A DNA stretch of 64,000 nt from the IMG/VR virus record IMGVR_UViG_3300025327_000015; one strand, 5' to 3'. The notes under the pieces were generated by a model, which made no database searches, was not told the origin of the DNA, and saw nothing but the letters and a program-made list of their open reading frames with translations. Position numbers and translations under genes: made by a program. Origin of the DNA: a virus (taxonomy: Duplodnaviria > Heunggongvirae > Uroviricota > Caudoviricetes). Positions 5,187 to 48,734 of the stretch are shown here, piece after piece. The number at the start of each line of letters is the position of its first letter. Within the stretch, counting starts at the first letter, position 1.

Positions 5187-5189
5187 AGT

Positions 5190-23050: not shown

Positions 23051-23087
23051 CTCTGGTCTCCTCCTCGGTCTCTACTCCAGTCCGTTA

Positions 23088-32822: not shown

Positions 32823-33476
32823 TTAAATCCTTGCCCAATCCAAATCAAGAGGATCATTCTCGCAAAACATAAGAGCAGTTCTACCCCTATCCCTTCCAGC
32901 CTTAGCTCGTCTCGGATTGACAATACTCGTCTCATCTGGATGCTGAACAAGCGAAGGAACTGTTGCAAAGATTCTCTGCTTAGTCATTCGCATCCAGAAA
33001 CCTACAATCGCATCATCTGAACTGGGGGGGCGACCTGGAAGTCTGGCAGCTTTTGACCATTCAAGAAATTCTTGAGCTTTCATTCTCGGCCAGAGAACTC
33101 CGACAACTGGAACGAAATCACGGAAATAGATTGGTACATAATGTTCTCCCCGTTGTATGGCTTTCAGAGCATCTGAAGCAGTTTTTTTAGGAAGACCGCC
33201 AAGATAGAGACAGATAGGAGTTTCAGGATTTGCGAGAGCGACTTGCTCTACCGCCAGCGGGAAATTAATGCAAACTCGCACATCATCTTGAAGCACAACT
33301 CCAAAGTCTGCACCACCCTGAAGAAACTGACGAAGACATGCCTGATAACCCCGCCAAGGACTCAGAGGATGTTTGTCGTCAACAACAACTTCCACTGAAA
33401 GTGGGGTAAGTGATTTCTTTAACGCAGGAAGAAGCGAAGCTCGCGACGGATGATGTTGAACCAAAACACAAATCAC
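32823..33476 (-). CDS. hypothetical protein (possible nucleotide-sugar transferase-like)
   Basis: 217 aa; VVLQDDV acidic motif; weak. Confidence 0.25.
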   Translation of the reverse strand: MICVLVQHHPSRASLLPALKKSLTPLSVEVVVDDKHPLSPWRGYQACLRQFLQGGADFGVVLQDDVRVCINFPLAVEQVALANPETPICLYLGGLPKKTASDALKAIQRGEHYVPIYFRDFVPVVGVLWPRMKAQEFLEWSKAARLPGRPPSSDDAIVGFWMRMTKQRIFATVPSLVQHPDETSIVNPRRAKAGRDRGRTALMFCENDPLDLDWARI

Positions 33477-36128: not shown

Positions 36129-37896
36129 CCGACACCTCCTGAACACGCTCAACATGGGCCGCAAACCCAGAGGGCAACGGGCCTGGATTCTTTTCGTAAA
36201 GAGTTCTGGCCGCATACACCTCAACCATCTCAGAAAGTGCAACCGCCTGTGTTTCCGCAAATCCCCAATTGATGAGCAAGTTACGGAATCCATCACTTCC
36301 ACTAGCTACTAGCTTGAGAGGTGATGGAGCATTCAGTTCTTTCAATACATCAGGGCCAATGAGAGAAGCGACAAGCGCATTAGGCTTACCATTCGCAGGC
36401 TCCAAGCACTCCGGACACGATTTTTGATAGGAACGAATTCGTGCCCCAGCAACCTCTCGACAACGAACGAGTGCTAGCTCCGCAGCGCCAAGAACTCTGG
36501 CAGAAGCTGTTCTCGATTCTGGCCGTGACCCTTCGCGCCCAGCTACAGGCTCCGGGGGACCTTCCTCTGGAGTACGAGCATCTTCAGGACTAGGCTGAGG
36601 ACCTCGTTCAGGAGTCATCTGAGGAGCATCGGGGAGAAGAAGCGGATTACGCATCTTCCAGGCGAGCCATTCATCATGCTCATCTTTAGAAGGCTCCATC
36701 GCTTCAGGAATACCTTTCATCTCACGATAACCTTTGTAACTAATTGCTCCGCGATCAAATGCTCGATCAGCATCTTCAGAACGATCAGGTGCAATAACAA
36801 CATCAGCATCGTCATAGGCAACTACTACCTGCGCCCATTCTGAATATTCAGCATCTTTCAATGCTGGACGCAAATATGCTTCCGAAATATCATCACAAAA
36901 CATCTCAGCAACTGGTGCCCCATGTGAACGCCACATATCATGAACAACTTGACGAGCCGTCCAGTGGTTGGCATCTGTCATTCCAAGCAGCACTTCAGGC
37001 GGAAAATCTAGACCCATCGCAAGCCTCTTAATAGCCTCAGTGCGCAGATCTCTTTCCAAATAATCAGTCTGAGGATCATGCATCTGCATCCAGCGCAGAC
37101 GATCGAGATATTCGTAGGAACCTTCAATGATCGGCGGTACACGCGCTTCTGCTGATCCCGGATTCTCGATCTGACCAATGAAGTGCTCAATTAGATCGAC
37201 CATGAAGGGATCGTTCTCTGGATCTTCATCTCCGATAGGTTCAGCAGGGCCTGGAGAAATTTCCTGCGGCACAAGCAGAAGTCCTTTAGTAAGACGCGTA
37301 AGGGCTGTTGATTGCACAGCTTTCGTCAAAAGAATTAGCTCTTCACAAACCTCTTGTACTGAACAAAGCGGAGCATCCGCAAGATCAGAATGTCGAGGAG
37401 AAGGGCGCCAAAGACGATATGCCACTCCTTCTTCTATGGGCTGTTTGTCCTTATCGATTCGGTAAGTTCGACCGTTCTCTTCCTTTACCTCATCTATCCA
37501 TAGAAAGCTCCATCGTTCTTCATCTGTATCGATTCGAGCACCAAAGAGAACACCTTCTCCAGTAATGAACATCAAACGCCCATAATTCAATTGAAGTTGG
37601 GAACGGCCACCACCTGGATCTTGAATGCGATTAAGCAAATCAACGGGTGGCCCTTCTTCAATAGGTTCGACTTCACCTTGTTCATCAAGAAGCGCAGGAA
37701 AAATTCGAACACGAGAAATCATGCGCGCATAAAACTGCGAAGCGTAACGAATTTCTCCTATTTGTTCGTAATAATCTAGGGCTCTTTGCTGCCAGCCTTC
37801 ACTCTGACGTTTAGAATAGGAAGTTTTCGGACCAGAATACTTCTCAGCAGAAGCAGTTAGAACACGAGGACCTCTGCGTCTCGCAGGAAGTGCCAT
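36100..37896 (-). CDS. portal protein
   Basis: 598 aa, size and N-terminal pattern (QQRALDYYEQIGEIRYA) typical of portal proteins; upstream of head morphogenesis gene. Confidence 0.55.
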   Translation of the reverse strand: MALPARRRGPRVLTASAEKYSGPKTSYSKRQSEGWQQRALDYYEQIGEIRYASQFYARMISRVRIFPALLDEQGEVEPIEEGPPVDLLNRIQDPGGGRSQLQLNYGRLMFITGEGVLFGARIDTDEERWSFLWIDEVKEENGRTYRIDKDKQPIEEGVAYRLWRPSPRHSDLADAPLCSVQEVCEELILLTKAVQSTALTRLTKGLLLVPQEISPGPAEPIGDEDPENDPFMVDLIEHFIGQIENPGSAEARVPPIIEGSYEYLDRLRWMQMHDPQTDYLERDLRTEAIKRLAMGLDFPPEVLLGMTDANHWTARQVVHDMWRSHGAPVAEMFCDDISEAYLRPALKDAEYSEWAQVVVAYDDADVVIAPDRSEDADRAFDRGAISYKGYREMKGIPEAMEPSKDEHDEWLAWKMRNPLLLPDAPQMTPERGPQPSPEDARTPEEGPPEPVAGREGSRPESRTASARVLGAAELALVRCREVAGARIRSYQKSCPECLEPANGKPNALVASLIGPDVLKELNAPSPLKLVASGSDGFRNLLINWGFAETQAVALSEMVEVYAARTLYEKNPGPLPSGFAAHVERVQEVSDAVHDSQAR

Positions 37897-38048
37897 CTAC
37901 TTCGCAGCAGAATCTTGAGGAGACGGAGAAGAAGATGGTTTCTTAACTGGCACTTTCTTGCCACCCTTACATCCGCACGGGATAGCAATCACCTCCAGAG
38001 ATAGCTAGACAGGCCATCGGCCTGATGGTGCCACATGTCTCCGGACGT

Positions 38049-38381
38049 TTACTCCGAGGAAAGCAGCTTATGACCAGCTATGACGGCTGCTGAAAGCATA
38101 AAAGGCGTTGCCACTATTAGCGCCGCCTGTGGCCATATTTGCCAAAAAAGCCACCAGCTAAGAGCTATCCATGCGCCTACACAATATGAACATGTAAGAA
38201 ACATCGCCCATTTCTCACGATAATCTCTCGGTATATCATCGCCTTCTCTATTCCATTCTTTACCGAGTTTCGTAAGATAACGACGAGGCTGATCGAAAAT
38301 ATCATCATATGCGATTAGCTGAAAAACACGCCAAGAGGCAATCGCTAGAATAATTGCCTCCCACCAATCAGGAACGTCCAC
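38049..38381 (-). CDS. membrane protein, holin candidate
   Basis: 110 aa, 3 hydrophobic helices, immediately downstream of amidase. Confidence 0.4.
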   Translation of the reverse strand: MDVPDWWEAIILAIASWRVFQLIAYDDIFDQPRRYLTKLGKEWNREGDDIPRDYREKWAMFLTCSYCVGAWIALSWWLFWQIWPQAALIVATPFMLSAAVIAGHKLLSSE

Positions 38382-38549
38382 GAGGCCATCCCTCTATCTT
38401 TCTTCTTCTTCTTCCCCAGGTTGGACCAAGATGTTTACGTGTCAACTCAACAACCATACGTTGGCTTACCGCTGGCGGTACATTGCGCTGAATCCCAGCA
38501 ATACTTTCTAGCTCCGTATCTTGGCGCCAGGGAAGTTTCATCTAAATAC

Positions 38550-39203
38550 TCACGTCTGTTCACGCTCTAGACGGATCTGCTCATACCAGTAGCGCACTTT
38601 GCGGATGAAGTAATCACGAGGAAAGTTTGGCCCAGGATCCCAATGCGTTCCGCCCTTGAAAGCCGCATTCACATCAACATGCGTTGTCAGACCACGCTTA
38701 TCTGCAAGAAGATCGGCAACAGTGAGCCAGCGACGAGGAATCTTGTATTGCCAGCACCATTTAGCGGCTTTGGCTGCAGCAAGATTGAGCATAGGTTTCA
38801 CAACTTCTTCCGCCCATCGTTCTTTCGTCCAGCCCGCACGACCGCAGATTTCCATATGCAGTCCGTCCGAGTTAGCACCTTTCGCTCCCCAAGGGATTAT
38901 AAGATCAGGCAACATCCGAACACATGAATCTCTGTCTACTGCAAGTTGAGTGGAAGCCTTCACATCTTGGCGAGCAAAATAGTTGGCAACACCCTCAGCA
39001 GTGTTATCGGATCCCGAAAGATCAGCCGCCTCTGCTGTATGGATAACCACGAGATCAATCGAAGATACCTGTCGCGGTCCTGAATCATGAGCCGCTCTCG
39101 GCCCTACTTTGCATGGCACGGCCCACAGACGAAGGGGATCATAAGATTTAGGTGGCATTGGCTTGATACAGGATACAGATGCTTTGAATCGTGGGGAGTT
39201 CAA
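38550..39203 (-). CDS. N-acetylmuramoyl-L-alanine amidase (PGRP/amidase_2) endolysin
   Basis: LVVIHTAEA...GANSDGLHMEICG amidase_2-like zinc site residues. Confidence 0.65.
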   Translation of the reverse strand: MNSPRFKASVSCIKPMPPKSYDPLRLWAVPCKVGPRAAHDSGPRQVSSIDLVVIHTAEAADLSGSDNTAEGVANYFARQDVKASTQLAVDRDSCVRMLPDLIIPWGAKGANSDGLHMEICGRAGWTKERWAEEVVKPMLNLAAAKAAKWCWQYKIPRRWLTVADLLADKRGLTTHVDVNAAFKGGTHWDPGPNFPRDYFIRKVRYWYEQIRLEREQT

Positions 39204-39708: not shown

Positions 39709-40287
39709 TCATACCATCTGCTTTCGCAGGTTATTTAATCTCCAATTTGCCGCGTCTAAGCGTTCAGGAGTATCCACACGTCCGATCTGCGACCAATGAT
39801 GGACAAATGCGTAGGAATATAGGATGCGCGTTTGAATACCCAACATGCGTGCTTTCTCCGATAACCAGATATCCGCGTAGTAATCAATCTCGGGCCAGAA
39901 ACCGATTCGTTCGTACTGATCGCGGCGGAGGATGGGAACACGAGTGAAATGAACAAAAGCTCCATCCTCACCATCTTCCCAGTTATCGAATGTGCCATCG
40001 GCAGAGAAGTTCAGAATCTTGGCGGCAGGAAGTTCATCATAGAGTCCAAGCCAGTGCAAAGGCTTTTCCCACCAGCCGGGCAAAGGCTCCAGATCATCTG
40101 CACCGAAATGCACGGTCTCTCCACTCGATTGCTTATAGCCCTTGTTGCAAGCTCCGGGCCAGGTTGGTTCGTCCTTCACCACGATCAGCTCGTGCTCCAC
40201 TTCCGTCGTCGCGCAGTAGGCGGCCACGATCTTCTCTAGAGATTCCTCTCGGCCAGAAATGGTAGGCATTATGATCGAGAGTTTCAT
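39709..40287 (-). CDS. GT-A fold glycosyltransferase (GT2-like)
   Basis: MKLSIIMPTISGREESLEKIVAAY start and HFGADDLEP DXD-like motif. Confidence 0.5.
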   Translation of the reverse strand: MKLSIIMPTISGREESLEKIVAAYCATTEVEHELIVVKDEPTWPGACNKGYKQSSGETVHFGADDLEPLPGWWEKPLHWLGLYDELPAAKILNFSADGTFDNWEDGEDGAFVHFTRVPILRRDQYERIGFWPEIDYYADIWLSEKARMLGIQTRILYSYAFVHHWSQIGRVDTPERLDAANWRLNNLRKQMV

Positions 40288-40615
40288 CCACCAAGATCCT
40301 TGATATTAATTCTTCGCACTTGCTCACTAAGAACAGCACTGGAAAGTTCCCAGGATGACAACTTCTCAGCGTCCTGGATTCCTAACCTCTTTGCATCCTC
40401 AAGATCACGAATACGTCGATGACGTGCAACTGAACGATTTAGAAGTTCTATCCACGATAGAGTATTCCAGTTAGAAGTTCCTAACTTCTTTTCTTCCATT
40501 CGCAACTTAGGTTCTTCTTTCTGACGATACTGTTTAGCTTGAAGCCGCGAAAGCTCTTGATTAGAGAGTTTCTCTAACTCTTCGCGGAGCTGTCTTTTTC
40601 CCCGCCTGAGCAGAT

Positions 40616-41221
40616 TCATCGCAGCACGTAGCAGGCCGCGAAGCAATCGGGCCGCCAAGGACTAGAGCAGGGATAGGAGCCGACGTGCTCGGCCTTGAAG
40701 CCCGCCTCTCCCGCCAGCGTGATGAACTCTCGTTTCGTCCACCATTCGGTAATGGGAACCTCGGACTGAGAGTGTGTCGAGAGGTTGCCGTCGTAGACCA
40801 TTACCCGCGCGTTTCCCTCTTTGAGCACTCGCCGCAGCCGAAGAAGAATACCAATGGGATCGTGGACGTGCTGGAGAACACCCGCGCAGTGAACATGATC
40901 TACCTGCGGCAGCTCGTCGTCGGCAAAGAGAGCGGTAGCCCTCCCGCGCAAGCCGTACATCTCTAGGCGTTCGCTCGTCGTTTGCAGAGCAAGCCAAGAA
41001 ATATCCGCGAAGTAGACGTGCGCCGCGCCATAGCGAAGAAAAAGCAAAGTGTCATGGCCGGGGCCGCAGCCGTAGTCGAGAATCGTCTGGCCGGGGTACT
41101 CGACAGGCATCAGCCCGAGCAAGTCCGGATAGCGAGAATTTCTCTCCTGGAGCGCCGCCTCAGATTCTTCGGCGTCCAAATAGGGGCCGCCGACTTGATG
41201 AGTGGCCCAGAAAGTTGTCAT
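40616..41221 (-). CDS. class I SAM-dependent methyltransferase
   Basis: ILDYGCGPGHDTLLF motif I. Confidence 0.6.
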   Translation of the reverse strand: MTTFWATHQVGGPYLDAEESEAALQERNSRYPDLLGLMPVEYPGQTILDYGCGPGHDTLLFLRYGAAHVYFADISWLALQTTSERLEMYGLRGRATALFADDELPQVDHVHCAGVLQHVHDPIGILLRLRRVLKEGNARVMVYDGNLSTHSQSEVPITEWWTKREFITLAGEAGFKAEHVGSYPCSSPWRPDCFAACYVLR

Positions 41222-41949
41222 ACGTAGCTTCTTTTAGAAATCGGAATATGTCTACGTTTCAATTCTGAACTGATTTGCTGGCTAACACGATTTCTATCTG
41301 TTGCACACCATTCATGATAGTTAACAAGATCAGTGTCAATGTAGGTTATTCCATGCTTTATCCATCCGTCTGTTTCATCCTTATTACGTTTACTGAGTTT
41401 CCAAGTTCGATGTTCAATGATGACATCGGGAAGATAACGGGTGAGATGAAGCATTCCAGCCAAGTTGTTCCAAGCCTCATCAATCCCGCCTTGACGTACT
41501 CCCGGCAATGCCCACCATCCAACCGTTCGAATCAACTCGCCTCCCCAACAAAGACCAGCCGTAAAGCAAGGACCTCCAGTCGAATGCAACCATCCCAGTT
41601 CTGACATCCAATAATCACGAGCGCATGAGATGTACCAATCGCCCGCTGCTTGCTCAAGCTCCACGTCCCACCCTGGCGTCTGTGGGATGTTGTCATCAGC
41701 CAGCCAGCCGTATTGGCTCGCATCCGGATATTGCTCTAGGCAGTAGCGCATGGAGGCCGCGATGGAACCCCATTCGGGCTCAAGATGCATCGTCCAGTTA
41801 GGCGGCAAGCGCAAGTCGGCATACTCCTCAACCGTTTCATCGACGTAGACAAGGCCGGGCGAAGTCATCTCCGTCGCCTCGCAGGCATCCAGAACTTCCT
41901 GACAGGCTTTCGGCCGTCCGCGCGTAGAGAGCAGCCAGATCGCGCTCAT
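41218..41949 (-). CDS. hypothetical protein in glycan cluster
   Basis: 243 aa Trp-rich; no clear motif. Confidence 0.3.
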   Translation of the reverse strand: MSAIWLLSTRGRPKACQEVLDACEATEMTSPGLVYVDETVEEYADLRLPPNWTMHLEPEWGSIAASMRYCLEQYPDASQYGWLADDNIPQTPGWDVELEQAAGDWYISCARDYWMSELGWLHSTGGPCFTAGLCWGGELIRTVGWWALPGVRQGGIDEAWNNLAGMLHLTRYLPDVIIEHRTWKLSKRNKDETDGWIKHGITYIDTDLVNYHEWCATDRNRVSQQISSELKRRHIPISKRSYV

Positions 41950-42863
41950 ACGAGCGCCTTTTGCCCCTGACAGAGATCAAGCCACCATTTGCGATCCCAG
42001 GGCTTCACGGGATCGGGAACATAGCCGATGCGCTCGAAGATGAAAGAACGTACGGGCTCACGCTGCGCCCACTCGACGTAGGGCACAGTGAATCCCATCT
42101 TGTCCTGGCGGGCGAGAATCTCCTCGGGGATGACACCGCGCATGGCCTCCTTTAGCAGCGGCTTCCCAACCCGCCGCTCGGGCGGTTGTTTCAGAACCCA
42201 CTCCACCACTTCCGGTTCCAACATGGGAGCGACGGCTGTGATTCCATAGAAGCTCGTCACCTGCTCATCCACCCGCAGCAGATCGGGCAAATGCTCCCAG
42301 TCATAGGCGAGCGCCGCTTCCAGCTCGCGAGGATAGTCGGCGGGAAGCTCGTATTCCTCATAGCCTGTGGGAGGCTCGATTCCGGCGACGATGTGCTGGC
42401 GAGCGTAACCTCCGAAAAGCTCGTCCCCTCCCTCACCCGAAAGCACCCGCTGGATTCCCTGCTTAGAGACATAGCGAGCGACCATAAACTGTCCGAAGGT
42501 GCCAGGCCCGGCGAAAGGCGGCTCCACGGCCTCCAGCATCTCGTCGAAGAACTCTACGAAATCCTCGGGTGTGATCTCGATCTCGTGATGCTCCCGTTGG
42601 CCCGCCGCTAGGCGTGCATAGGGCCGTTCATCGTAAGCCTCTCCCTCATACCAGCCCGTGAAGGCCGGTAGTCTCGGCGCAAAAGCCGCGATGGTAGAAG
42701 AATCGATTCCGCCTGAGAGCAAGACGCCTGTGACCGGGATTCGCGTTGCGTACTTGACAACCGCCGCACGAATAAGCGCCCGCAGATATGTCGCCTGAGC
42801 CATGTTCATCCTTTGAGAGAGAGATGTGTATACGCTTGTTCGACACCATTCTTGGAATACCAA
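41946..42863 (-). CDS. PP-loop ATP pyrophosphatase, asparagine synthase B C-domain-like (amidotransferase)
   Basis: VLLSGGIDSSTIAAFA SGGxDS PP-loop. Confidence 0.6.
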   Translation of the reverse strand: MVFQEWCRTSVYTSLSQRMNMAQATYLRALIRAAVVKYATRIPVTGVLLSGGIDSSTIAAFAPRLPAFTGWYEGEAYDERPYARLAAGQREHHEIEITPEDFVEFFDEMLEAVEPPFAGPGTFGQFMVARYVSKQGIQRVLSGEGGDELFGGYARQHIVAGIEPPTGYEEYELPADYPRELEAALAYDWEHLPDLLRVDEQVTSFYGITAVAPMLEPEVVEWVLKQPPERRVGKPLLKEAMRGVIPEEILARQDKMGFTVPYVEWAQREPVRSFIFERIGYVPDPVKPWDRKWWLDLCQGQKALV

Positions 42864-43642
42864 GAAATCGCGCGTCTAAGCCCTTCTTCAAGGGGAACTT
42901 TCGGTTGCCAATCTGGCGGATTCGGATAGACCGGATGCAAAGAACCCACATCCTCCGGAGCACGGATAAGCGACTCAAAATCTCCCTTGGTTCCCATCAA
43001 TTCGCTTATCCACCCAAACAATTCCAAGATCGAAGTGTCCTTAGCCGAGCTGATCCCGAAGGAACCTTCTCGTTCCAAGTTGTCTATTACTTCGGCCACC
43101 AGATCGTCCACGAAGACGAAGTTGCGGACGGTGTCGCTGACGGTGCATGGCTCTCCCGCCGCCAGCCGCTTGTAAAAGGCCGGAATCGCGCCCGAGAGGT
43201 TACGGGGGCCGTAAATATTGGCTAGTTGATATACCGCCAGCGGGATGCCCGAAAGTCTCAAATAGTGCTCGCCCGCGATTTTAGAGATGGCATAACTAGA
43301 GATCGGCGGCAAAGACGTCTGAAAATAAATGACTCCTGCACCGTGATGCTTAGCGACAGCGGCTACATTGATCGCTCCAGCCACATTGATATCGGTATCA
43401 CGATGCCACTTCTGCGCATCGTCATAGGAAGCCGCACAATGGATGACTAATTCAGGCTTGACCTTGTTGGCGAACTCATAGAAAGCAGAACGATTCGTGA
43501 TGTCAATGTCTTCGGCATCAGGCCAGTTGGACTCTCGACCAGTAAGAAGATTGTCACATCCACAGAAATAGTGATCTTCGGCTAGGGTATCTCCTAAATG
43601 TGAACCGATGAAACCCGCCACACCCGTACAGAGAATCTTCAT
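42806..43642 (-). CDS. NAD-dependent sugar epimerase/dehydratase
   Basis: MKILCTGVAGFIGSHL Rossmann GxxGxxG and YAISK YxxxK catalytic motif. Confidence 0.75.
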   Translation of the reverse strand: MKILCTGVAGFIGSHLGDTLAEDHYFCGCDNLLTGRESNWPDAEDIDITNRSAFYEFANKVKPELVIHCAASYDDAQKWHRDTDINVAGAINVAAVAKHHGAGVIYFQTSLPPISSYAISKIAGEHYLRLSGIPLAVYQLANIYGPRNLSGAIPAFYKRLAAGEPCTVSDTVRNFVFVDDLVAEVIDNLEREGSFGISSAKDTSILELFGWISELMGTKGDFESLIRAPEDVGSLHPVYPNPPDWQPKVPLEEGLRRAISWYSKNGVEQAYTHLSLKG

Positions 43643-43693
43643 TCATGAGAGGATAATTCCCCTAGCGGTCGGATCATCGAGTCTGTGGACTTT

Positions 43694-44173
43694 TCAATCA
43701 TCAGCAGATGCGGACAACATCTGCTTCATCAGCGTAGTCAGATTCTCAAGCGGATCCGTCCGAAGCACGGGCAAAACCGTCTCTTTCCACCAGGCCAGAA
43801 CCATTTCATCTGCGAGAGTGTGGCTGATTCCTTCGTGACGAAGCGCCTGCCGCAGTTCATCGGCCATCTCCGCCAATGTGCTACAGGAATGCTTGAATTG
43901 CTGTGCGTCATCCAAATCAAGGCTCATTCGATTCACCTCCTTCAGACTATTAGTTTCTCTTGCGTCCAGCGCCGCTCTAGCGCGAGCAGTTCGTCCAACC
44001 GCGCCATCGTCTCTTCGCGCGTTAGATCCTCGCCAAGGTATTTCCAGCCATAAAACGCCGCCGCATAAGGCTTGAAATAGTCTTTGTGCTCGAAGTTCCA
44101 GGGGCGATCCATTACCACTCGGCGTTGCAAAGACAGATGACATCGTTGGCAAGCGGCAAGTAAATTCCACCAT
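43694..44173 (-). CDS. hypothetical protein
   Basis: 159 aa. Confidence 0.25.
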   Translation of the reverse strand: MVEFTCRLPTMSSVFATPSGNGSPLELRAQRLFQALCGGVLWLEIPWRGSNARRDDGAVGRTARARAALDARETNSLKEVNRMSLDLDDAQQFKHSCSTLAEMADELRQALRHEGISHTLADEMVLAWWKETVLPVLRTDPLENLTTLMKQMLSASADD

Positions 44174-44583
44174 CGGCAGTTGGCCTTGTCCTCGTCAAGG
44201 TGATGACAGGTGAGGATGCGCCACTGAGCCTCCATGCGGAACGTTTCCCGCCCTTGGTAGCCCATCCATGCTCTCGGGTCGAGATCCGGCACCAGTTCCC
44301 AATCGCCTTCATCATCCGGGCCGTGCGTCTCCGCACGACCGAACGACCACACTCGCACCGGCCCTCCATGCGTGCAACGCTCATCGCAAGGGGACCACTC
44401 ACCGTTCCCGTGCTCCCCCACGCGGTAGGGATGCCCGCAGCGCTGGCAGCGGTGGCCCGCCTGCTCGCGGATCAGATCCTTGATCGCTGGTTCCCACTCT
44501 GTCTCCTGATGCCAAAAATACGGATAGCCATCCGGTCCGCATTCATAAGGCTCATATTGACGTAGAAATTTATTCACGGGCAA
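43942..44583 (-). CDS. HNH endonuclease-like protein
   Basis: HRCQRCGHPY ... LTCHHLDEDKANCRWWNLLAACQRCH. Confidence 0.5.
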   Translation of the reverse strand: MPVNKFLRQYEPYECGPDGYPYFWHQETEWEPAIKDLIREQAGHRCQRCGHPYRVGEHGNGEWSPCDERCTHGGPVRVWSFGRAETHGPDDEGDWELVPDLDPRAWMGYQGRETFRMEAQWRILTCHHLDEDKANCRWWNLLAACQRCHLSLQRRVVMDRPWNFEHKDYFKPYAAAFYGWKYLGEDLTREETMARLDELLALERRWTQEKLIV

Positions 44584-44585
44584 GA

Positions 44586-45233
44586 TTACCGAGGCACCGT
44601 AGGATCATTGGGATGCGGCTTAATGCGCCGAGCGCCATAGGACTCTTGATAGTAAGGATCTCTCCAATCTCCAGAGGCCAGACTTTCGATACATGGCCGT
44701 TCTACTCGGTCCCACTCATAGCCCATATTGAGAACAGCAGGCGAGAAAAAACTGTCTTCAGACCAACCTGGAGGGTATTTAGGCCAGGGAGTCTCGTCCC
44801 AACGTAATCCCTGATCCCATAATTCACGGCGGATAACGCAGTTACCTCCGGTGTTTTGCGCGACAAACAGTTCTTCTTCATCTGTTCGTAGTCCGAGTTG
44901 CCCTAGTTTAGAATTTGCCTCGAACATACGCTGAGTCTCCTCGCACCAGCCGGGGAGGAAACGGAAATCATTATCGGAACGATGAAGAAAGATAGCATCT
45001 TTCGGTGCTCGTTCCCAGCCTCGATTACAAGCAAAACCTGGATAATGATTCTCATTCAAAAGATAGATTCCATAATCAAACTGATTGAGCAACCACTGAC
45101 GCAGATCTTCATCTGATCTGTTATCAACCACCACCAAAGTAAAAGGAACAGTTACAGTCTCTAAATAGCTTCCAATCGTCTGTTTAGTTAGTTCTAGACG
45201 ATTGTAAGTGACAACAACTGTATGAAGTTTCAT
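44586..45233 (-). CDS. glycosyltransferase family 2
   Basis: MKLHTVVVTYNRLELTKQTIGS...LVVVDNRSDED. Confidence 0.65.
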   Translation of the reverse strand: MKLHTVVVTYNRLELTKQTIGSYLETVTVPFTLVVVDNRSDEDLRQWLLNQFDYGIYLLNENHYPGFACNRGWERAPKDAIFLHRSDNDFRFLPGWCEETQRMFEANSKLGQLGLRTDEEELFVAQNTGGNCVIRRELWDQGLRWDETPWPKYPPGWSEDSFFSPAVLNMGYEWDRVERPCIESLASGDWRDPYYQESYGARRIKPHPNDPTVPR

Positions 45234-45960
45234 CTTCTTCTCTTTACCAATCTATGCCGGAAACGTTTTCCAGAATTAACTTCCATCCAATTAGAAGGAT
45301 AATGATCGGGGAAAAGTTGACTCCCAATCTCATAGTGCCAACCAAGTCTTGTTAAATGATCCGCACCTCGATGTCGAGAACGCTGATCCCAATACGCGAC
45401 ATAGACAGCTTCTGGAACCTTTATTACTTGCGCACCTGCTTTATAGCAACGCGCCCAAAGTGACCAATCTTCATAAGCATTTGAACCTGGAGGATCTCCA
45501 TAATCGATGAATCCACCAACCCGAAAGAAAAGATCGCGTGGAATTAGCGTACCGATGACAAGCCAATTACCAGACTCAAAAGGAACAGCAGGCCAGATTT
45601 TGGGCGGTCGTGCTCGTCCACCCTGCACATAAGAGACAGCAGGCGTGAGCAGGAGAGGAGTGCCGTCATCTCTACTCTCCCGCTCAAAAGCCCGCTGCAT
45701 AGCCTCGACATAGCCAAGGCTAAGAGTGTCGTCACCGTCACAGAAAATCAGCGCATCACCTTTTGCCCTCTCAGCTAGTCCATTTCTCACTGAAGAAACA
45801 GTGCCCCCTGGAGCATGGTCTATTAAGACTTCAGCGTCTTGAGCACGAGCAGAAGGTAGCGCCCGTTCCTCTGCTAAACGGCGCCATTCATCTGACCCAT
45901 AGGTCCCAATACAAATAGAAACTCTTATAAGACGATCTGCTCTTCCATAACAGCAAGCTG
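45230..45960 (-). CDS. glycosyltransferase family 2 (5' end extended beyond ORF-track call; exact start unresolved)
   Basis: Track ORF begins at GTG 45790 with DXD motif (ALIFCDGDD) at residue 17; same frame stays open upstream and encodes the expected GT2 N-terminus (RVSICIGTYGSDEWRRLAEERALPSARAQDAEVLIDHAPGG), overlapping the 3' end of ORF 45925..46311. Confidence 0.5.
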
Positions 45961-46229
45961 ATCTTCAAGATCTCGAATCAATTGATCAAGATCTTCTCTA
46001 ATGTCAACTTCGGGAGTTTCTACCGCCAAGCGGTAAGCAACAGCCTGATCTCGCAAAGCACGAGTGCCTCCAAGAACGATTTGATTCATCGTCCTGACTA
46101 CCTCAATCTGCTCTGCTTGAAGATCTTCGATCATCTTCTGCTGGATACGTATGAACTCACTCTGACGTCTAGCAAGCTCAATTGCCTTCTCCAGCTCGAT
46201 CAAACCCATGAGACGGCGTAGTAAATTTC

Positions 46230-46961
46230 TCATCTTCGGGGGTGAGTATATCGCCTTCTGCGTCTCCTGATGATCGAGAGTTCTTGAGGCAGGAGACCGA
46301 CATAGCCCCACTGCTCCGCTCGATCCCAGAAGAGTTCCTGATCAACGCCGAAGTTAAGACGACCCTTCTCATATGTCGCATCTTGTGGCGCTGTTCCCCA
46401 GGCAGGATGGCGATGCACAATCTCTGCATTCTGAGCAAATGCCCATTGTTTACGAGCCTGTGCCAAATGACACAACTCACGATCAACAAAGTTATGATCA
46501 TAACTCTCTGAAACAAGAATCCCAGGACCATCCAACGATCCTCCTTGCTCTTCCACATACGAACGTCGCACAAGAGGATGAGTCGAAAATTGTCCTTTCA
46601 CCACGAGTCTATTGGCCTTATCATTTGTACCAATTACCCCAGCTCCAGTAGCTTCTGCCATTTGAAGGGTAAGTTCATCCCAGCCCTGCTTGAAATCAAG
46701 ATCATCAGAAGCAAGAAGAAGAAAGGGCTGTTCGGTGCGCTCAAAGCCTTTGTTCATCTTCTTCGGATACTGATGTTGTTCTCCAAAGTCAGCTACAAGT
46801 ACATCTTCTCCTGTTGCAAGACAAGCCTCAATCTGGGCTTCATCTCCCTCAGAACAAAGGAAAAGTGTCCGACAAGACACCGAAGATGACTGCATAAGAG
46901 ACACGATAAGTGGCTCAGCATTTTGAGGACGAGCTAGTACAGGAATCAGAACATCAATCAC
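46230..46961 (-). CDS. GT-A fold glycosyltransferase
   Basis: LLLASDDLDF DXD motif, MIDVLIPVLARP N-terminus. Confidence 0.5.
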   Translation of the reverse strand: MIDVLIPVLARPQNAEPLIVSLMQSSSVSCRTLFLCSEGDEAQIEACLATGEDVLVADFGEQHQYPKKMNKGFERTEQPFLLLASDDLDFKQGWDELTLQMAEATGAGVIGTNDKANRLVVKGQFSTHPLVRRSYVEEQGGSLDGPGILVSESYDHNFVDRELCHLAQARKQWAFAQNAEIVHRHPAWGTAPQDATYEKGRLNFGVDQELFWDRAEQWGYVGLLPQELSIIRRRRRRYTHPRR

Positions 46962-47195
46962 GAGATGAACGCATTCGGATAAAATAATTAGGGTTAATAA
47001 CTTCAGATAATCCCCAGATAGCTTTCGCCATCTGCTGAATCTCTTCCCGCGAGAATCGCTCTAACCAGAACGAGTAATAAGCAGAAATCGGTTCTTGCGA
47101 ACGGCCATGACTACACGGCTTACAAACGGTATGTCTACGTGCATGACGAGCCGATAGAACGTGTGGATTCCCGCAAGAAGGACAGTAGACGAGTA

Positions 47196-48734
47196 CTACG
47201 CCCTCGCTGCGTCTTGCCTTCTGCGACTGAAAGGACTCGAAATCCGCATTTTCTGTATCGGCCTCGATCTCAACCAATTCATACATTGCGACCACGCATC
47301 CACATCGTCGTCATGTGTGGCATTGGGAAAGAGCGCACATGAATTGATGAAGTCAACAATATCTGCCGGACAGTTCTTCTCATCTGGCATCGAAAGCTCA
47401 TCTGCGCCCAGCCTCCGTCCGGGAAGATAGCAGTTACCAGATTCAAGATCAGATGAGGCAGCTTCGGCACGAAGGATTTTGTCTCCCTCACCTTGATGGG
47501 AGAGCTTTTGCACACCTGTTAGCTCGCGTTTCAATTCGATAATGAGTTCTACTCCGTAACCGGCATTTTCAATCAGACAGTAGTGCGCCGCATGCGGGAA
47601 CATCTTCCGGACATAGCGCGCTTGCTCCAGAACGGCACGTTTGGCCTGGGTAAAATTCATATGTCCTTTTTTCAGGTCCAATAGATAGCGATCCGCTCCG
47701 ATGACTCCCCATGCCTGAATTGCGACCAGATCATTCGCTTCTTTGTCTTTCTGAGGCGTATCAATTGTTTGCACAACAGCACGAAAACGCGGCAAACGAG
47801 CCGGGTCTTGTAGAAGTTTCGGATCGTAGAAACGCCACCAGCTACGAAGAAGAATCTCTCCTTCTCGCGCAGCTGGCCGCTGTTGTAACTGCGCAGCAGC
47901 GCGGTGAGAAGTCATCCCCGCTGCCAAAGCATTAGAGGTCGTTTCATTCCGAAACTCAGGCCAAAGAAGATCCCCTTCGTTGCGAGGATCACGAGGCCAC
48001 AGTTGAGGATGATTGTGCTCAAAGCGTTCAGGAAGACAGAGAACTTCCCAACGCTCCTTTTCGAGTACGTGGCCAGCTAGATCATTTTGATGCAATCTCT
48101 GCATCACAATGATGCGCGCATGATCATTGCCGATCCCACGGGACTCGACGGTGCCGTCATACCAGTTATTCGTACTCCCGAGTACCGAACCTGACGTCGC
48201 ATCTGCTTCTCGGGCATTGACAGGATCATCGATAAGAATACGATGACCGTGCTCTCCCTGCCCCGTTGATTCAGGTGAAGTGGCTAGGCGCGTGCCACCG
48301 CGCGAATTGGTGAAGTAATACTCAGCATCTCTGATGAATTGAAGATCCCAACGCTCCTGATACCAATCAGACATCATGAGATCACGAGACATCGCAGCAA
48401 TACGACCAGAAAAACGAGTCTCATAGGAAGCACCCCAATACCGAATACTGGGACTGTGAGTCCATTCCCAAGCAGGCCAAAGAATAGAGACGATGAGTGT
48501 TTTCATAGAAACAGGTGGGACCCAAACCTGTAGACGTTTAATCTCCCCCCTGCTTACTGCCTCAAGGTATTCACACATGGCATCGATATGCCAGTTGTGA
48601 AGATAGATCTCATCGGGCTTTAGATTCGGCCAGGCGGCCAATACAAACTTACGAAACGACCTAGAAAGAATCTCGGCTTCTTCTTCTAGTTCTTTTCGTA
48701 CAAGCTCTTGCTCAAGAAAATCAAGAACTCCCAC
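47196..48734 (-). CDS. terminase large subunit
   Basis: ATPase core (KTLIVSIL Walker A-like, ILIDDPVN Walker B) and C-terminal nuclease (NATHDDDVDAW). Confidence 0.8.
   Translation of the reverse strand: MGVLDFLEQELVRKELEEEAEILSRSFRKFVLAAWPNLKPDEIYLHNWHIDAMCEYLEAVSRGEIKRLQVWVPPVSMKTLIVSILWPAWEWTHSPSIRYWGASYETRFSGRIAAMSRDLMMSDWYQERWDLQFIRDAEYYFTNSRGGTRLATSPESTGQGEHGHRILIDDPVNAREADATSGSVLGSTNNWYDGTVESRGIGNDHARIIVMQRLHQNDLAGHVLEKERWEVLCLPERFEHNHPQLWPRDPRNEGDLLWPEFRNETTSNALAAGMTSHRAAAQLQQRPAAREGEILLRSWWRFYDPKLLQDPARLPRFRAVVQTIDTPQKDKEANDLVAIQAWGVIGADRYLLDLKKGHMNFTQAKRAVLEQARYVRKMFPHAAHYCLIENAGYGVELIIELKRELTGVQKLSHQGEGDKILRAEAASSDLESGNCYLPGRRLGADELSMPDEKNCPADIVDFINSCALFPNATHDDDVDAWSQCMNWLRSRPIQKMRISSPFSRRRQDAARA

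What the first reader, a model, noticed from the sequence alone, without database searches (positions are those of the whole stretch)
39709..46961. Seven-kilobase glycan-biosynthesis cluster inserted between terminase and lysis/portal genes, with a second set at 1323..3634
The cluster holds four GT-A/GT2 glycosyltransferases, an NAD-dependent epimerase (GxxGxxG, YxxxK), an AsnB-like PP-loop amidotransferase (SGGIDSS) and a SAM methyltransferase, interspersed with an HNH endonuclease. A GT1 glycosyltransferase and two more methyltransferases lie at 1.3-3.6 kb. This looks like an O-antigen-type pathway. It may glycosylate virion proteins, as some actinophage capsid and tail proteins are glycosylated, or it may remodel host surface glycans for superinfection exclusion. 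Terminase and portal are separated by about 9 kb as a result.
Basis: partly seen in the sequence, partly recalled or inferred. Interest (0 to 1): 0.6.

Follow-up and report, generated by a model that had tools for sequence, protein, structure and literature searches.

The report
Variable glycosylation island in a phage virion operon
An uncultured ~109 kb tailed phage carries seven sugar-transferring enzymes plus sugar-tailoring enzymes inside its virion gene operon, most likely to coat its own capsid and tail with glycans, and its relatives carry a different enzyme set at the same site.

Summary
Window 39709-46961 (minus strand) holds 13 tightly packed ORFs between the large terminase and the lysis and portal genes. 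The GT1 and two methyltransferase-like ORFs at 1.3-3.6 kb are also there.

It is a homologue of Che8 gp110 and Corndog gp38, reported as the two transferases essential for mycobacteriophage capsid glycosylation, and in relatives it lies directly upstream of the capsid gene.

The cluster is not a one-off insertion. In about 14 related metagenomic phages the terminase-portal gap is 3.2-13 kb. It always opens with the same transferase, usually followed by two more, and the remaining sugar-enzyme cargo differs. No membrane segment, flippase, polymerase or initiating transferase was found, so "O-antigen-type pathway" is not supported.

Best reading (about 0.58): cytoplasmic O-glycosylation of virion proteins with a lineage-variable, methylated glycan. 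This is a new variant of a known kind and is untested experimentally.

The parts
46954..47295 (-). Small Zn-ribbon-like ORF (CxxC...CxxC) between TerL and the first transferase. Function unknown. The true start is probably downstream of the 100-nt overlap with TerL.
   Evidence: Conserved at 33-38% identity at the same place in L003, L004, L011, L025 and L029. Only weak zf-DNL hit in Pfam.
46230..46961 (-). GTa243: GT-A fold glycosyltransferase, the lineage-conserved first gene of the island. D86-D87 are invariant.
   Evidence: No Pfam hit for the window protein. At least 295 metagenomic homologues, some with PF00535. AF2 model pLDDT 95. Foldseek PDB top hits are all GT-A transferases, and viral GT-A hits follow. 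It lies directly after TerL in most loci that show both.
45925..46233 (-). Small coiled-coil-like ORF (102 aa as called by JGI). Function unknown.
   Evidence: Translation, gene call. Homologues at the same place in L025 and L029.
45230..45925 (-). GT2c: GT2-type transferase. It is 186 aa from the GTG at 45790. The conserved N-terminal 45 residues are in frame upstream without a canonical start, and a possible ATA start overlaps the TAA stop of the upstream ORF.
   Evidence: PF10111 and PF00535 sub-threshold hits. The upstream in-frame peptide RVSICIGTYGSDEW aligns with the N-termini of the L003, L004 and L005 homologues. Conserved next to GTa243 even in distant Parafrankia and Acidimicrobiia loci.
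44586..45233 (-). GT2_215: family 2 glycosyltransferase, third member of the conserved core trio.
   Evidence: PF00535, 1.2e-8, above the gathering score. 53-68% identical homologues in relatives.
43942..44583 (-). Free-standing HNH homing endonuclease (selfish element, not part of the pathway).
   Evidence: phrog_1571, 4.7e-8. Its 56%-identical homologue lies elsewhere in L003 and L004, upstream of TerS. L029 has a different HNH_3 gene one gene further upstream.
43694..43927 (-). Small ORF (77 aa as called by JGI). Function unknown.
   Evidence: Gene call. No family hit.
42806..43642 (-). Extended-SDR nucleotide-sugar epimerase or oxidoreductase with GxxGxxG and YxxxK. Nearest solved relatives are the Bordetella putative nucleotide-sugar epimerase/dehydratase SDRs (PDB 2q1w, 2pzk).
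   Evidence: PF01370, 3.9e-26. PDB 2q1w at 8.5e-43 and 2pzk at 3.7e-39, then GalE, UDP-GlcA decarboxylase and epimerase-domain entries 6zl6. The Bordetella O-antigen SDRs WbmF, WbmG and WbmH bind uridyl nucleotides (PMC2279256); assigning the two PDB codes to them is from memory.
41946..42803 (-). AsnB-type PP-loop ATP-dependent amidotransferase. Only the synthetase domain is present, with no glutaminase domain. 285 aa from the ATG; the ORF is open to 42863.
   Evidence: PF00733, 3.3e-48, with no GATase hit. TIGR01536 matches only profile positions 232-375 of 517. PDB AsnB chains align from residue ~206-235 onward. SGGIDSS is in the translation.
41218..41949 (-). GT243: GT-A fold glycosyltransferase of a family with no Pfam model. 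D85-D86 are invariant.
   Evidence: phrog_14945 'glycosyltransferase', 1.3e-14. 23-26% identity to annotated GTs of Streptomyces phages such as Jay2Jay and Warpy. 153 homologues, none with a Pfam hit. AF2 pLDDT 94. Foldseek hits are WrtF, K4CP and hyaluronan synthase.
40616..41221 (-). Class I SAM-dependent methyltransferase.
   Evidence: PF08241, PF08242, PF13489, PF13649 and PF13847, all about 1e-11 to 1e-9 and above their cut-offs. phrog_22502.
40284..40619 (-). Small basic coiled-coil-like ORF (111 aa as called by JGI). Function unknown.
   Evidence: Gene call. No family hit.
39709..40287 (-). GT192: short GT-A transferase related to GTa243.
   Evidence: PF00535, 2e-4, just below the cut-off. 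hhalign to the GTa243 family gives 92.9%, E 3.6e-7, with DxD aligned. 70% identical homologue in L029 and 36-37% in L005, L025 and L035.
32823..33476 (-). GT217: GT25-like transferase of the Che8 gp110 / Corndog gp38 family. It lies next to the capsid gene in relatives. Here a + strand block (25.6-32.5 kb) separates it from the capsid gene. Proposed to start protein glycosylation.
   Evidence: phrog_854, 8.9e-17. tblastn to 147 Mycobacterium phage records. blastp to Che8 gp110, 24% over 194 aa, E 4e-10. Profile-profile 98.4%, E 4.3e-15. Directly upstream of the MCP in L001, L005, L026, L027, L029, L031, L032 and L035.
2504..3634 (-). GT-B fold (GT1/GT4-type) glycosyltransferase downstream of the tail-fibre genes.
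   Evidence: PF00534, 5.3e-13, and PF13692, 4.4e-13. Weak NCBIfam GT4 hits.
1915..2526 (-). Methyltransferase-like ORF. All Pfam hits are below their gathering scores.
   Evidence: PF13489, 2.6e-5, and PF08242, 2.6e-4.
1323..1970 (-). SAM methyltransferase-like ORF. Its homologue lies inside the terminase-portal island in relatives.
   Evidence: PF08241 at 24.4 bits against a 21.2 cut-off. 45-48% identical copies inside the islands of L003 and L004, and next to the transferase trio in L013.
47196..48734 (-). Context: large terminase subunit, the upstream boundary of the island.
   Evidence: PF17289. 36% identity to Roseobacter phage CRP-901 TerL.
36100..39203 (-). Context: lysis genes (amidase 38550-39203, DUF1360 membrane protein 38049-38381) and portal 36100-37896, the downstream boundary.
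   Evidence: PF01510, PF07098. phrog_776 portal, 1.8e-96.
21519..24905 (-). Candidate acceptors. Major capsid protein 23088-24905 ends ...CPSGEFPALGTALSC. Major tail protein 21519-22178 ends ...VTPSS.
   Evidence: phrog_777 and phrog_792. The C-terminal Cys-bracketed Thr/Ser loop of the MCP and the Ser/Thr-rich last five residues of the tail protein are conserved across relatives. Their role as acceptors is inferred only.

Best explanation
The island is the variable part of a two-site, phage-encoded system that glycosylates virion proteins in the cytoplasm. I propose the following steps.

1. The genes are made late, together with terminase, portal and capsid.
2. The GT25-like enzyme at 32823-33476 (Che8 gp110 / Corndog gp38 family) puts the first sugar on Ser or Thr of a structural protein. 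Likely sites are the C-terminal tails of the major capsid and major tail proteins, and possibly the GxT-rich collagen-like fibres.
3. The conserved trio (46230-46961, 45230-45925, 44586-45233) extends a common glycan core.
4. The accessory cassette adds a strain-specific outer part. Its SDR and glutaminase-less AsnB enzyme tailor a UDP-sugar, possibly a uronic acid turned into its amide. Its methyltransferase and its two transferases (41218-41949, 39709-40287) complete the glycan.
5. The GT1 and methyltransferases at 1.3-3.6 kb belong to the same pathway and may serve the adjacent tail fibres.

What is shown:
- the enzyme folds and families;
- homology to the mycobacteriophage capsid-glycosylation transferase;
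- the operon position;
- the absence of membrane machinery in the window;
- the conserved-core, variable-cargo pattern.

What is inferred:
- that the target is protein;
- which residues are modified;
- the sugar chemistry;
- the order of action;
- the biological benefit (a surface shield or altered surface properties).
For: - **Folds.** There are five GT-A proteins in the island, a UDP-sugar-type SDR, an AsnB synthetase domain and a SAM methyltransferase.
- **Link to validated virion glycosylation.** The GT217 family profile matches Che8 gp110 + Corndog gp38 at 98.4%, E 4.3e-15 over 185 columns. PMC12363180, citing Freeman et al. 2023, names these as the two transferases essential for capsid glycosylation.
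- **Synteny.** In Corndog the MT gp35 and GT gp36-38 lie between portal gp34 and MCP gp41. GT217 homologues lie directly upstream of the MCP in eight relatives.
- **Operon structure.** Island genes overlap by 1-8 nt or are 2-51 nt apart, and run in the same direction as TerL and portal. There is no excess of promoter or terminator motifs.
- **Soluble enzymes.** The highest 19-residue hydropathy among island proteins is 1.35.
- **No export machinery.** No PGT, Wzx, Wzy or ABC-transporter family was found in any scanned window ORF, nor among the 25 families listed of 33 matched for 74 island ORFs of relatives.
- **Lineage pattern.** The TerL-portal gap is 3.2-13 kb in about 14 relatives. It always contains GTa243, usually as the first gene, and the minimal form is the trio (L031). 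The cargo is GT2, sugar O-methyltransferases, polysaccharide deacetylases, PIG-L, epimerases and UDP-Glc/GDP-Man dehydrogenase.
- **A shared module.** The five-gene cassette SDR-AsnB-GT-MT-GT recurs in the same order in L029 at 52-75% identity.
- **Second set linked.** The MT215 homologue sits inside the island in L003 and L004.
- **Candidate acceptor tails.** The MTP ends in VT[SPA][ST]S and the MCP ends in a conserved Cys-bracketed Thr/Ser loop.
- **Actinophage kinship.** The capsid is 34-37% identical to actinophage 'major capsid hexamer' proteins. The GTa243+GT2c pair lies about 4.5 kb downstream of a terminase gene in Parafrankia soli.
Against: - There is no experimental datum for this phage or any close relative. 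The acceptor is inferred from homology at 24% identity and from gene position.
- The window GT217 does not itself reach any Pfam GT25 score.
- The MCP and MTP C-termini are short and only mildly Ser/Thr-rich. I could not read Freeman et al. 2023 (not held) to compare acceptor motifs.
- Soluble GT-A enzymes can also act on lipid- or polymer-linked host glycans at the inner face of the membrane. The prophage enzyme TarP is an example (from my own knowledge).
- About 44 kb of the 108.7 kb genome lies outside the window and was not examined. DNA-modification or membrane genes there cannot be excluded.
- The uronamide chemistry is speculative.
Confidence: 0.58

Rival explanations
1. The enzymes remodel host envelope glycans during infection or lysogeny. 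They would act at the cytoplasmic face on lipid-linked or polymer-linked host glycans (cell-wall polysaccharide, teichoic-acid-like polymer, LPS core). The altered receptors would block superinfection or stop progeny from being trapped on cell debris.
For: - GT25 is by name an LPS-core transferase family. Che8 gp110 and Corndog gp38 hit PF01755, and JGI names two GT217 homologues 'GR25 family glycosyltransferase involved in LPS biosynthesis'.
- The SDR's best solved relatives come from an O-antigen pathway.
- Soluble phage GT-A enzymes that modify wall polymers exist, for example TarP (from my own knowledge).
- Variable cargo would also fit an arms race over receptors.
Against: - The genes sit inside the late virion operon with 4-nt overlaps, not in a lysogeny or moron position.
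- No integrase-family, flippase or membrane protein was found among the scanned window ORFs.
- The island and GT217 keep fixed positions next to TerL and MCP across relatives.
- The nearest experimentally studied homologues act on capsid proteins.
Confidence: 0.17
2. The transferases hypermodify phage DNA, attaching sugars to hydroxymethylated bases to escape restriction.
For: - Phage transferases of many families decorate DNA with diverse glycans (Pyle et al. 2024, cited in PMC12619734).
- The phage invests in anti-restriction. A DNA N6/N4 methylase lies at 49575-50471, next to the packaging genes.
- Proximity to terminase could in principle couple modification to packaging.
Against: - No thymidylate-synthase-like hydroxymethylase or other base-modifying family was found in any scanned ORF of the 64 kb window.
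- The gene next to the MCP belongs to the capsid-glycosylation family.
- Known DNA-glycosylation genes are, to my knowledge, early or replication-module genes.
- An SDR, an amidotransferase and O-methyltransferases point to a complex glycan rather than a mono- or disaccharide on a base.
Confidence: 0.08
3. The cluster is an auxiliary metabolic set. It would redirect host nucleotide-sugar pools, or make a free or secreted oligosaccharide or glycolipid, without modifying virions, host surface or DNA. Alternatively it is partly decayed cargo.
For: - One transferase lacks a canonical start codon.
- An HNH element and small ORFs of unknown function are interspersed.
- GC content is mosaic, 0.43-0.60 by gene.
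Against: - Every reading frame is intact.
- The core trio is conserved at 40-68% identity across many phages, and the five-gene cassette at 52-75%. That indicates purifying selection on a working pathway.
- Five transferases without any export function make a secreted product unlikely.
Confidence: 0.07

Closest known systems
Mycobacteriophage virion-glycosylation cassettes: Corndog gp35-gp38 (MT + 3 GT) and Che8 gp108-gp110 (Freeman et al. 2023, as cited in PMC12363180 and PMC11256854)
   Same: - A GT25-type transferase homologous to gp110/gp38.
- The gene is placed between portal and major capsid gene, as in Corndog.
- Additional GT-A transferases and SAM methyltransferases accompany it.
- All enzymes are soluble.
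- The capsid is of actinophage type.
   Different: - The system is split over two or three sites: next to the MCP, after TerL, and after the tail fibres.
- It is much larger: seven transferases and up to three methyltransferases.
- It includes nucleotide-sugar tailoring enzymes (an SDR and a glutaminase-less AsnB). No such genes are annotated in the Corndog or Che8 stretches I read.
- The GTa243, GT2_215 and GT243 families are not found in mycobacteriophages: GTa243 and GT2_215 have no tblastn match in 50,697 GenBank phage records, and GT243 matches only Streptomyces and Arthrobacter phages.
- Glycosylation is unproven here.
Streptomyces phages such as Jay2Jay and Warpy: glycosyltransferase genes next to a heptose-phosphate nucleotidyltransferase
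   Same: GT243 is 23-26% identical over almost its full length to their annotated transferases. Those phages also pair transferases with a sugar-activating enzyme.
   Different: The genomic position and the partner enzymes differ. To my knowledge the function in those phages is also untested.
Bordetella wbm O-antigen SDRs WbmF/WbmH (PDB entries 2pzk and 2q1w; assigning these codes to WbmF/WbmH is from memory)
   Same: They are the best solved relatives of the island SDR (8.5e-43 and 3.7e-39). WbmF, WbmG and WbmH bind NAD and uridyl nucleotides and act in a UDP-uronic-acid sugar pathway.
   Different: The phage enzyme is about 50 residues shorter. Its substrate is unknown. There is no Wzx/Wzy or ABC-transporter context.
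Asparagine synthetase B family amidotransferases of glycan loci
   Same: The PP-loop SGGxDS motif and the synthetase domain are present. The gene is immediately flanked by an SDR and a transferase.
   Different: The N-terminal glutaminase domain is missing. The enzyme would need free ammonia, another amine or a partner. Its role in sugar amidation is an inference.
Temperate-phage seroconversion systems (GtrABC; prophage TarP)
   Same: These are phage-encoded GT-A transferases that change a glycan.
   Different: Those are lysogeny-expressed morons, and GtrABC has membrane components. Here the genes are in the late virion operon and no membrane component was found.
Phage DNA glycosylation (T4 alpha/beta-glucosyltransferases; systems in Pyle et al. 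2024)
   Same: Virus-encoded transferases with diverse sugar specificities.
   Different: No hydroxymethylase was found in the window. The gene position differs, and the MCP-adjacent gene belongs to a protein-glycosylation family.

Membership tests
Che8 gp110 / Corndog gp38 capsid-glycosylation transferase family (GT25-like, phrog_854) | Sequence homology to gp110 and gp38 over the whole domain | tested here: met
   phrog_854, 8.9e-17, over residues 9-208. blastp to Che8 gp110, E 4e-10. Profile-profile 98.4%, E 4.3e-15, 185 columns.
Che8 gp110 / Corndog gp38 capsid-glycosylation transferase family (GT25-like, phrog_854) | Conserved acidic motif (VLEDD in gp110/gp38) and the C-terminal PSLVxH motif | tested here: met
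   VLQDD and PSLVQH align with VLEDD and PSLVDH. Q63, D64, D65, P174, S175, L176, V177 and H179 are invariant in 32 family members.
Che8 gp110 / Corndog gp38 capsid-glycosylation transferase family (GT25-like, phrog_854) | Pfam PF01755 (Glyco_transf_25) at or above the gathering score | tested here: not met
   gp110 (32.3 bits) and gp38 (24.5 bits) pass the 24-bit cut-off. The window protein gives no PF01755 hit at E <= 0.05.
Che8 gp110 / Corndog gp38 capsid-glycosylation transferase family (GT25-like, phrog_854) | Gene located in the virion structural operon near the major capsid gene (Corndog arrangement) | tested here: met
   Corndog gp35-38 lie between portal and MCP. Homologues lie directly upstream of the MCP in eight relatives. 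In the window a 7 kb + strand block intervenes.
Che8 gp110 / Corndog gp38 capsid-glycosylation transferase family (GT25-like, phrog_854) | O-linked glycans actually present on capsid or tail-tube subunits and dependent on the gene | not testable with these tools
   Needs virions, mass spectrometry and a knockout.
GT-A fold glycosyltransferases (GT2-like) | Single Rossmann-like alpha/beta/alpha domain that superposes on solved GT-A enzymes | tested here: met
   GTa243 and GT243 models (pLDDT 95 and 94) match only GT-A transferases, E 1e-7 to 1e-8, TM about 0.5-0.66. The other three were not modelled.
GT-A fold glycosyltransferases (GT2-like) | DxD-type metal and nucleotide-sugar binding motif | tested here: met
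   D86-D87 are invariant in GTa243 and D85-D86 in GT243. GADD of GT192 aligns on it. CDGDD in GT2c and RSDND in GT2_215 can be read.
GT-A fold glycosyltransferases (GT2-like) | Pfam PF00535 above the gathering score | tested here: inconclusive
   Met only by GT2_215 (35.6 against 23.3). GT192 and GT2c score 21.8 bits, just below. GTa243 and GT243 give no hit.
O-antigen / capsule type (undecaprenyl-phosphate-linked) glycan pathway | Initiating phosphoglycosyl transferase (WbaP or WecA type) | tested here: not met
   No such family in any scanned window ORF, nor among the 25 families listed of 33 matched for 74 island ORFs of relatives. The 44 kb of genome outside the window was not seen.
O-antigen / capsule type (undecaprenyl-phosphate-linked) glycan pathway | Flippase or polymerase (Wzx, Wzy) or ABC transporter; multi-pass membrane proteins | tested here: not met
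   No family hit. No island protein has a 19-residue hydropathy above 1.35.
Extended SDR nucleotide-sugar epimerases/dehydratases | N-terminal GxxGxxG NAD site, catalytic YxxxK, and homology to UDP-sugar SDR structures | tested here: met
   GVAGFIG and YAISK. PF01370, 3.9e-26. 2q1w at 8.5e-43.
Asparagine synthetase B (glutamine-hydrolysing, class II amidotransferase) | PP-loop SGGxDS and the synthetase domain | tested here: met
   PF00733, 3.3e-48. LSGGIDSS is present.
Asparagine synthetase B (glutamine-hydrolysing, class II amidotransferase) | N-terminal Ntn glutaminase domain with Cys at position 1 | tested here: not met
   The protein is 285-305 aa. Matches start at profile or chain position about 190-235. 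There is no GATase family hit. The upstream gene is the SDR, with a 2-nt gap.
Phage DNA glycosylation systems based on hydroxymethyl-pyrimidines | dCMP/dUMP hydroxymethylase (thymidylate-synthase fold) in the same genome | tested here: inconclusive
   None among the ORFs of at least 75 aa scanned in the window. About 44 kb of the 108.7 kb contig lies outside the window.

The most novel reading that the evidence does not exclude
A widespread, uncultured lineage of ~60-110 kb siphophages with actinophage-like capsids, found in metagenomes, keeps a fixed 'glycan serotype' locus in its virion operon. A conserved priming and core transferase set is combined with freely exchanged sugar-tailoring cassettes. 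Virion surface glycans would then diversify between related phages the way O-antigen loci diversify between bacterial strains. This member would make an amidated, methylated uronic-acid-type sugar using a glutaminase-less AsnB enzyme.
Probability: 0.3. Interest if true: 0.68.

Novelty: new variant of a known kind. Interest (0 to 1): 0.5.

Why it matters
As far as the papers I could read show, virion glycosylation in bacteriophages has been demonstrated only in mycobacteriophages (Che8, Corndog, Myrna). There it shields particles from antibodies.

If this island does the same job, three things follow:
- The trait extends to an environmental phage lineage with no vertebrate immune pressure, which raises the question of what the glycan coat is for.
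- Phage surface glycans would be under diversifying cassette exchange at a fixed locus.
- The lineage supplies unannotated transferase families (GTa243 with at least 295 homologues, GT243 with 153) and a glutaminase-less AsnB enzyme as candidates for protein-glycoengineering tools.

The Parafrankia soli terminase-linked copy of the transferase pair offers a cultured entry point.

Tried and rejected
**Searches that found nothing**
- Megablast of the island against 50,697 GenBank phages gave no match.
- tblastn of GTa243 and GT2_215 against the same set gave no match, so no cultured phage carries these families at that sensitivity.
- Sequence search of PDB with GT243, GT192 and GT217 gave nothing meaningful. 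Fold prediction and profile comparison were used instead.
- The promoter and terminator scan of 37.8-49.7 kb found no more sites than shuffled sequence, so no internal transcription unit can be claimed.

**Leads that were dropped**
- Roseobacter phage CRP-901 has the nearest TerL, but its portal follows TerL directly, so it is not a model for the island.
- A GT243 homologue (L028) lies among fragmented metabolic genes in one ENA contig. The context looks like an error-prone assembly and was not pursued.
- The Sphingomonadales MAG contig (L006/L011) carries TerL, the small ORF and GTa243 next to housekeeping genes. It is either a prophage end or a binning or assembly chimera, and is too ambiguous to assign a host.

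**Things I could not obtain**
- Freeman et al. 2023 is not held, so acceptor motifs and glycan structures could not be compared at first hand.
- Walking beyond window position 1 by looking up MT215 returned only 2 kb contigs.

**Readings considered and rejected**
- A group I intron around the HNH gene was rejected. The neighbouring genes are complete, and Rfam at gathering threshold reports no intron family in the window.
- An "O-antigen-type pathway" was rejected (see the membership test).

Full report
**1. Where the window comes from**

- The window is part of a 108.7 kb contig of JGI metagenome 3300025325 (Ga0209341_10000041). The same phage was assembled in three other JGI samples.
- It has no nucleotide-level relative among 50,697 GenBank phage records.
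- Its large terminase is 36% identical to that of Roseobacter phage CRP-901.
- Its major capsid protein is 34-37% identical to the 'major capsid hexamer protein' of large Gordonia, Arthrobacter and Mycobacterium phages.
- The minus strand carries one long virion operon, in this order:
  - TerS-like 48734-49282 and TerL 47196-48734;
  - the island 39709-46961;
  - a Rho_N-like ORF, amidase 38550-39203 and DUF1360 membrane protein 38049-38381;
  - portal 36100-37896 and a protease-containing protein 34383-36302;
  - a 159-aa protein and a transferase at 32823-33476;
  - after a + strand block at 25.6-32.5 kb: MCP 23088-24905, a 278-aa protein and major tail protein 21519-22178;
  - collagen-like fibre 19292-21118, adaptor and tape measure 9512-13474;
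  - further fibre genes, GT1 2504-3634 and two methyltransferase-like ORFs.

**2. Check of the observation**

Pfam supports these above their gathering scores:
- GT2 at 44586-45233;
- the SDR at 42806-43642;
- the Asn_synthase domain at 41946-42863;
- the methyltransferase at 40616-41221.

PHROGs supports the HNH at 43942-44583 and calls 41218-41949 a glycosyltransferase.

Two ORFs had no Pfam hit, so I tested them by structure:
- For 46230-46961 I aligned 28 of at least 295 homologues. The model has pLDDT 95. Its best matches in the PDB are all GT-A transferases, including AvpGT, PcManGT, GpgS, WrtF, SpsA and TarS.
- For 41218-41949 the model from 32 homologues has pLDDT 94. It matches WrtF, chondroitin polymerase and hyaluronan synthases.

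The short protein at 39709-40287 aligns to the 46230 family profile at 92.9% probability with the DxD motifs superposed.

The ORF at 45230-45790 begins at position 70 of the GT2 profile. Its missing N-terminus is in fact encoded in frame just upstream (RVSICIGTYGSDEW...). That peptide aligns with the N-termini of homologues in L003, L004 and L005, but the stretch has no ATG, GTG or TTG. An ATA overlapping the TAA stop of the preceding ORF is a possible start.

The island therefore holds five GT-A enzymes, not four. The second set at 1.3-3.6 kb is confirmed for the GT1. It is weak for the methyltransferases: one passes a single Pfam cut-off and the other passes none.

**3.

The ORF at 32823-33476 matches phrog_854 'glucosyltransferase' at 8.9e-17. 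By tblastn it hits 147 Mycobacterium phage records, including Tweety, PMC and DeadP.
- Direct comparison with Che8 gp110 gives 24% identity over 194 residues, E 4e-10.
- A profile of 32 homologues against Che8 gp110 plus Corndog gp38 gives 98.4% probability, E 4.3e-15 over 185 columns. The VLQDD/VLEDD and PSLVQH/PSLVDH motifs align.
- Che8 gp110 and Corndog gp38 are Pfam GT25 proteins. PMC12363180, citing Freeman et al. 2023, describes them as the two transferases essential for capsid glycosylation.
- In Corndog the methyltransferase gp35 and transferases gp36-38 lie between portal gp34 and capsid gp41. That is the position of the 32823 gene's homologues in eight relatives of this phage.

**4. 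The island is a lineage feature with variable cargo**

I collected relatives through the portal, the contigs that encode GTa243 and GT243 homologues and profile-based scans of genome and viral contigs.
- In about 14 loci that show both TerL and portal, the interval is 3.2-13 kb. It always contains a GTa243 homologue, and that gene comes directly after TerL in most of them.
- The smallest islands are GTa243 + GT2c + GT2_215 only (L031) or GTa243 + GT2_215 (L032).
- The pair GTa243 + GT2c also occurs in more distant elements. One lies about 4.5 kb downstream of a terminase gene in the cultured Parafrankia soli NRRL B-16219.
- Downstream of the core the content changes:
  - L003 and L004: UDP-Glc/GDP-Man dehydrogenase and methyltransferases;
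  - L005 and L025: a GT192-like transferase plus an epimerase;
  - L026: a CmcI-type sugar methyltransferase;
  - L027: a dual-specificity phosphatase;
  - L001: PIG-L deacetylase, FkbM methyltransferase and DXD transferases.
- A pooled Pfam scan of 74 island ORFs from ten further relatives found 17 GT2, other GT2-like families, Glyco_transf_7C, seven sugar or O-methyltransferases, four polysaccharide deacetylases and three epimerases. No flippase, polymerase or initiating transferase appeared among the 25 families listed of 33 matched.
- The window's accessory cassette SDR-AsnB-GT243-MT-GT192 recurs in the same order in L029 at 52-75% identity.
- The cassette has a higher and more uneven GC content (0.54, individual genes 0.43-0.60) than the core trio (0.47).
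- The methyltransferase at 1323-1970 has 45-48% identical homologues inside the islands of L003 and L004. This ties the second set to the same pathway.

**5. How it most likely works**

- All island proteins lack membrane-like segments. The genes overlap by a few nucleotides and face the same way as TerL and portal.
- Neither the window's scanned ORFs nor the listed island families of relatives include undecaprenyl-phosphate machinery. No integrase-family or hydroxymethylase hit was found in the window.
- I therefore read the system as cytoplasmic protein glycosylation. The GT25-like enzyme primes a structural protein, the conserved trio builds a common core, and the accessory cassette supplies and attaches a variable outer part.
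- The SDR's nearest solved relatives are the Bordetella putative nucleotide-sugar epimerase/dehydratase entries 2q1w and 2pzk. I take these, from memory, to be WbmH and WbmF, which bind uridyl nucleotides in a UDP-uronic-acid pathway. Next come GalE, UDP-GlcA decarboxylase and the epimerase-domain entries 6zl6.
- Relatives carry a UDP-sugar 6-dehydrogenase instead.
- The AsnB-like enzyme has the PP-loop and the synthetase domain but no glutaminase domain.
- Together these suggest, but do not show, a uronic-acid sugar converted to its amide and O-methylated.
- Candidate acceptor sites come from an alignment of C-termini across relatives:
  - the major tail protein ends in VT[SPA][ST]S;
  - the capsid protein ends in a conserved Cys-bracketed loop with Thr/Ser (CPSGEFPALGTALSC).
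- This fits the report, quoted in PMC12619734, that mycobacteriophage glycans sit at the C-termini of capsid and tail-tube subunits.
- The GxT-rich collagen-like fibres are a further possibility, from analogy only.

**6. Rivals**

- Host-envelope remodelling remains possible, because soluble GT-A enzymes can act on polymer-linked glycans. The late-operon position, the fixed linkage to TerL and MCP, and the lack of lysogeny or membrane genes in the window argue against it.
- DNA glycosylation (Pyle et al. 2024, cited) is disfavoured for three reasons: no hydroxymethylase in the window, the family assignment of the MCP-adjacent gene, and the complexity of the implied glycan. About 44 kb of the genome was not seen.
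- Decay or purely metabolic roles are unlikely given conservation of intact frames across many phages.

**7. Comparison with the known, and novelty**

- The system works like the Corndog and Che8 virion-glycosylation cassettes and contains a homologue of their key enzyme.
- It differs in five ways:
  - it is split over two or three sites;
  - it has seven transferases;
  - it includes nucleotide-sugar tailoring enzymes;
  - it uses transferase families with no match in GenBank phages or no Pfam model;
  - it shows a conserved-core, variable-cargo architecture at a fixed site.
- I rate it a new variant of a known kind.
- Nothing here is experimentally shown. Confidence in virion glycosylation is about 0.58.

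**8. Verdict**

Interest is 0.5. The finding is solid and gives a testable extension of a recent discovery to an environmental phage lineage, but it is an inference from homology and gene order.

Noticed in passing
window 26509-28182 (+), with 25315-25375 and 26328-26397 (+): The phage encodes a Ro60/Rsr orthologue (TROVE 2e-45 plus Ro60 vWA 2.5e-44). Just upstream are two sub-threshold matches to the Y-RNA-like family YrlA (33.7 and 29.3 bits against a gathering score of 69). This suggests a phage Ro60 plus Y-RNA module. It sits in a + strand block that interrupts the virion operon.
   Followed up: partly
window 30014-30184 (+) and 31177-31248 (-): ARAGORN calls seven tRNAs. Rfam at gathering threshold accepts three in the whole-window scan, and a region scan adds the Met gene (42.4 bits). 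The two adjacent 'tRNA-Ser' genes match best, below threshold, to tRNA-Sec. The Trp gene scores 28.8 against a gathering score of 29.
   Followed up: partly
window 51091-51756 (+): A truncated class I peptide-chain release factor (C-terminal part of PCRF plus the RF-1 domain). JGI calls it as a 179-aa protein plus a 37-aa PCRF fragment. The ORFs in the window read normally in the standard code, so its role is unclear.
   Followed up: no
window 45790-45930 (-): The conserved N-terminal 45 codons of the second transferase have no ATG, GTG or TTG start. A possible ATA start overlaps the TAA stop of the upstream ORF. The same 186-aa call appears in all three independent JGI assemblies that cover it.
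   Followed up: partly
window 8583-9038 (-), 25706-26209 (+), 43942-44583 (-): Three free-standing HNH endonuclease genes of different families lie inside or between virion genes. The island HNH has its homologue at a different genomic place in L003 and L004, as expected for mobile homing genes.
   Followed up: partly
window 23088-24905 (-), residues ~88-170: The 605-aa capsid protein has a long N-terminal part with an extremely acidic Gly/Asp/Glu-rich stretch. That stretch is not alignable between relatives, while both flanks are conserved. It is probably a fused scaffold or delta domain.
   Followed up: no
window 18168-19280 (-) and 16861-18162 (-): Two proteins of unknown function lie in a 60-64% GC stretch of the tail region. 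One has a signal-peptide-like N-terminus and poly-proline runs. The other is Thr/Ser/Ala-rich. Neither has a PHROG or Pfam hit.
   Followed up: no
window 53258-53833 (-), 31551-32468 (+), 51941-52876 (+): Accessory genes: a stand-alone Clp_N domain protein (2e-30), an SPFH/Band 7 protein and a VWA-domain protein.
   Followed up: no
L006/L011 (GCA_031406495.1, JANOHL010000050.1) 1-2900: A Sphingomonadales MAG contig carries TerL (69% identical), the small Zn-ribbon ORF and a GTa243 homologue directly next to housekeeping genes such as FBPase and homoserine dehydrogenase. It may be a prophage end, a remnant or an assembly or binning chimera. It conflicts with the actinobacterial host hint from the capsid.
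   Followed up: no
L012 (Parafrankia soli NRRL B-16219, NZ_MAXA01000047.1) 3810-11220: A cultured actinobacterium carries the GTa243 + GT2c pair about 4.5 kb downstream of a terminase gene that is 46% identical to Streptomyces phage Samy TerL. The neighbouring ORFs were not annotated. This could be an experimental entry point.
   Followed up: partly
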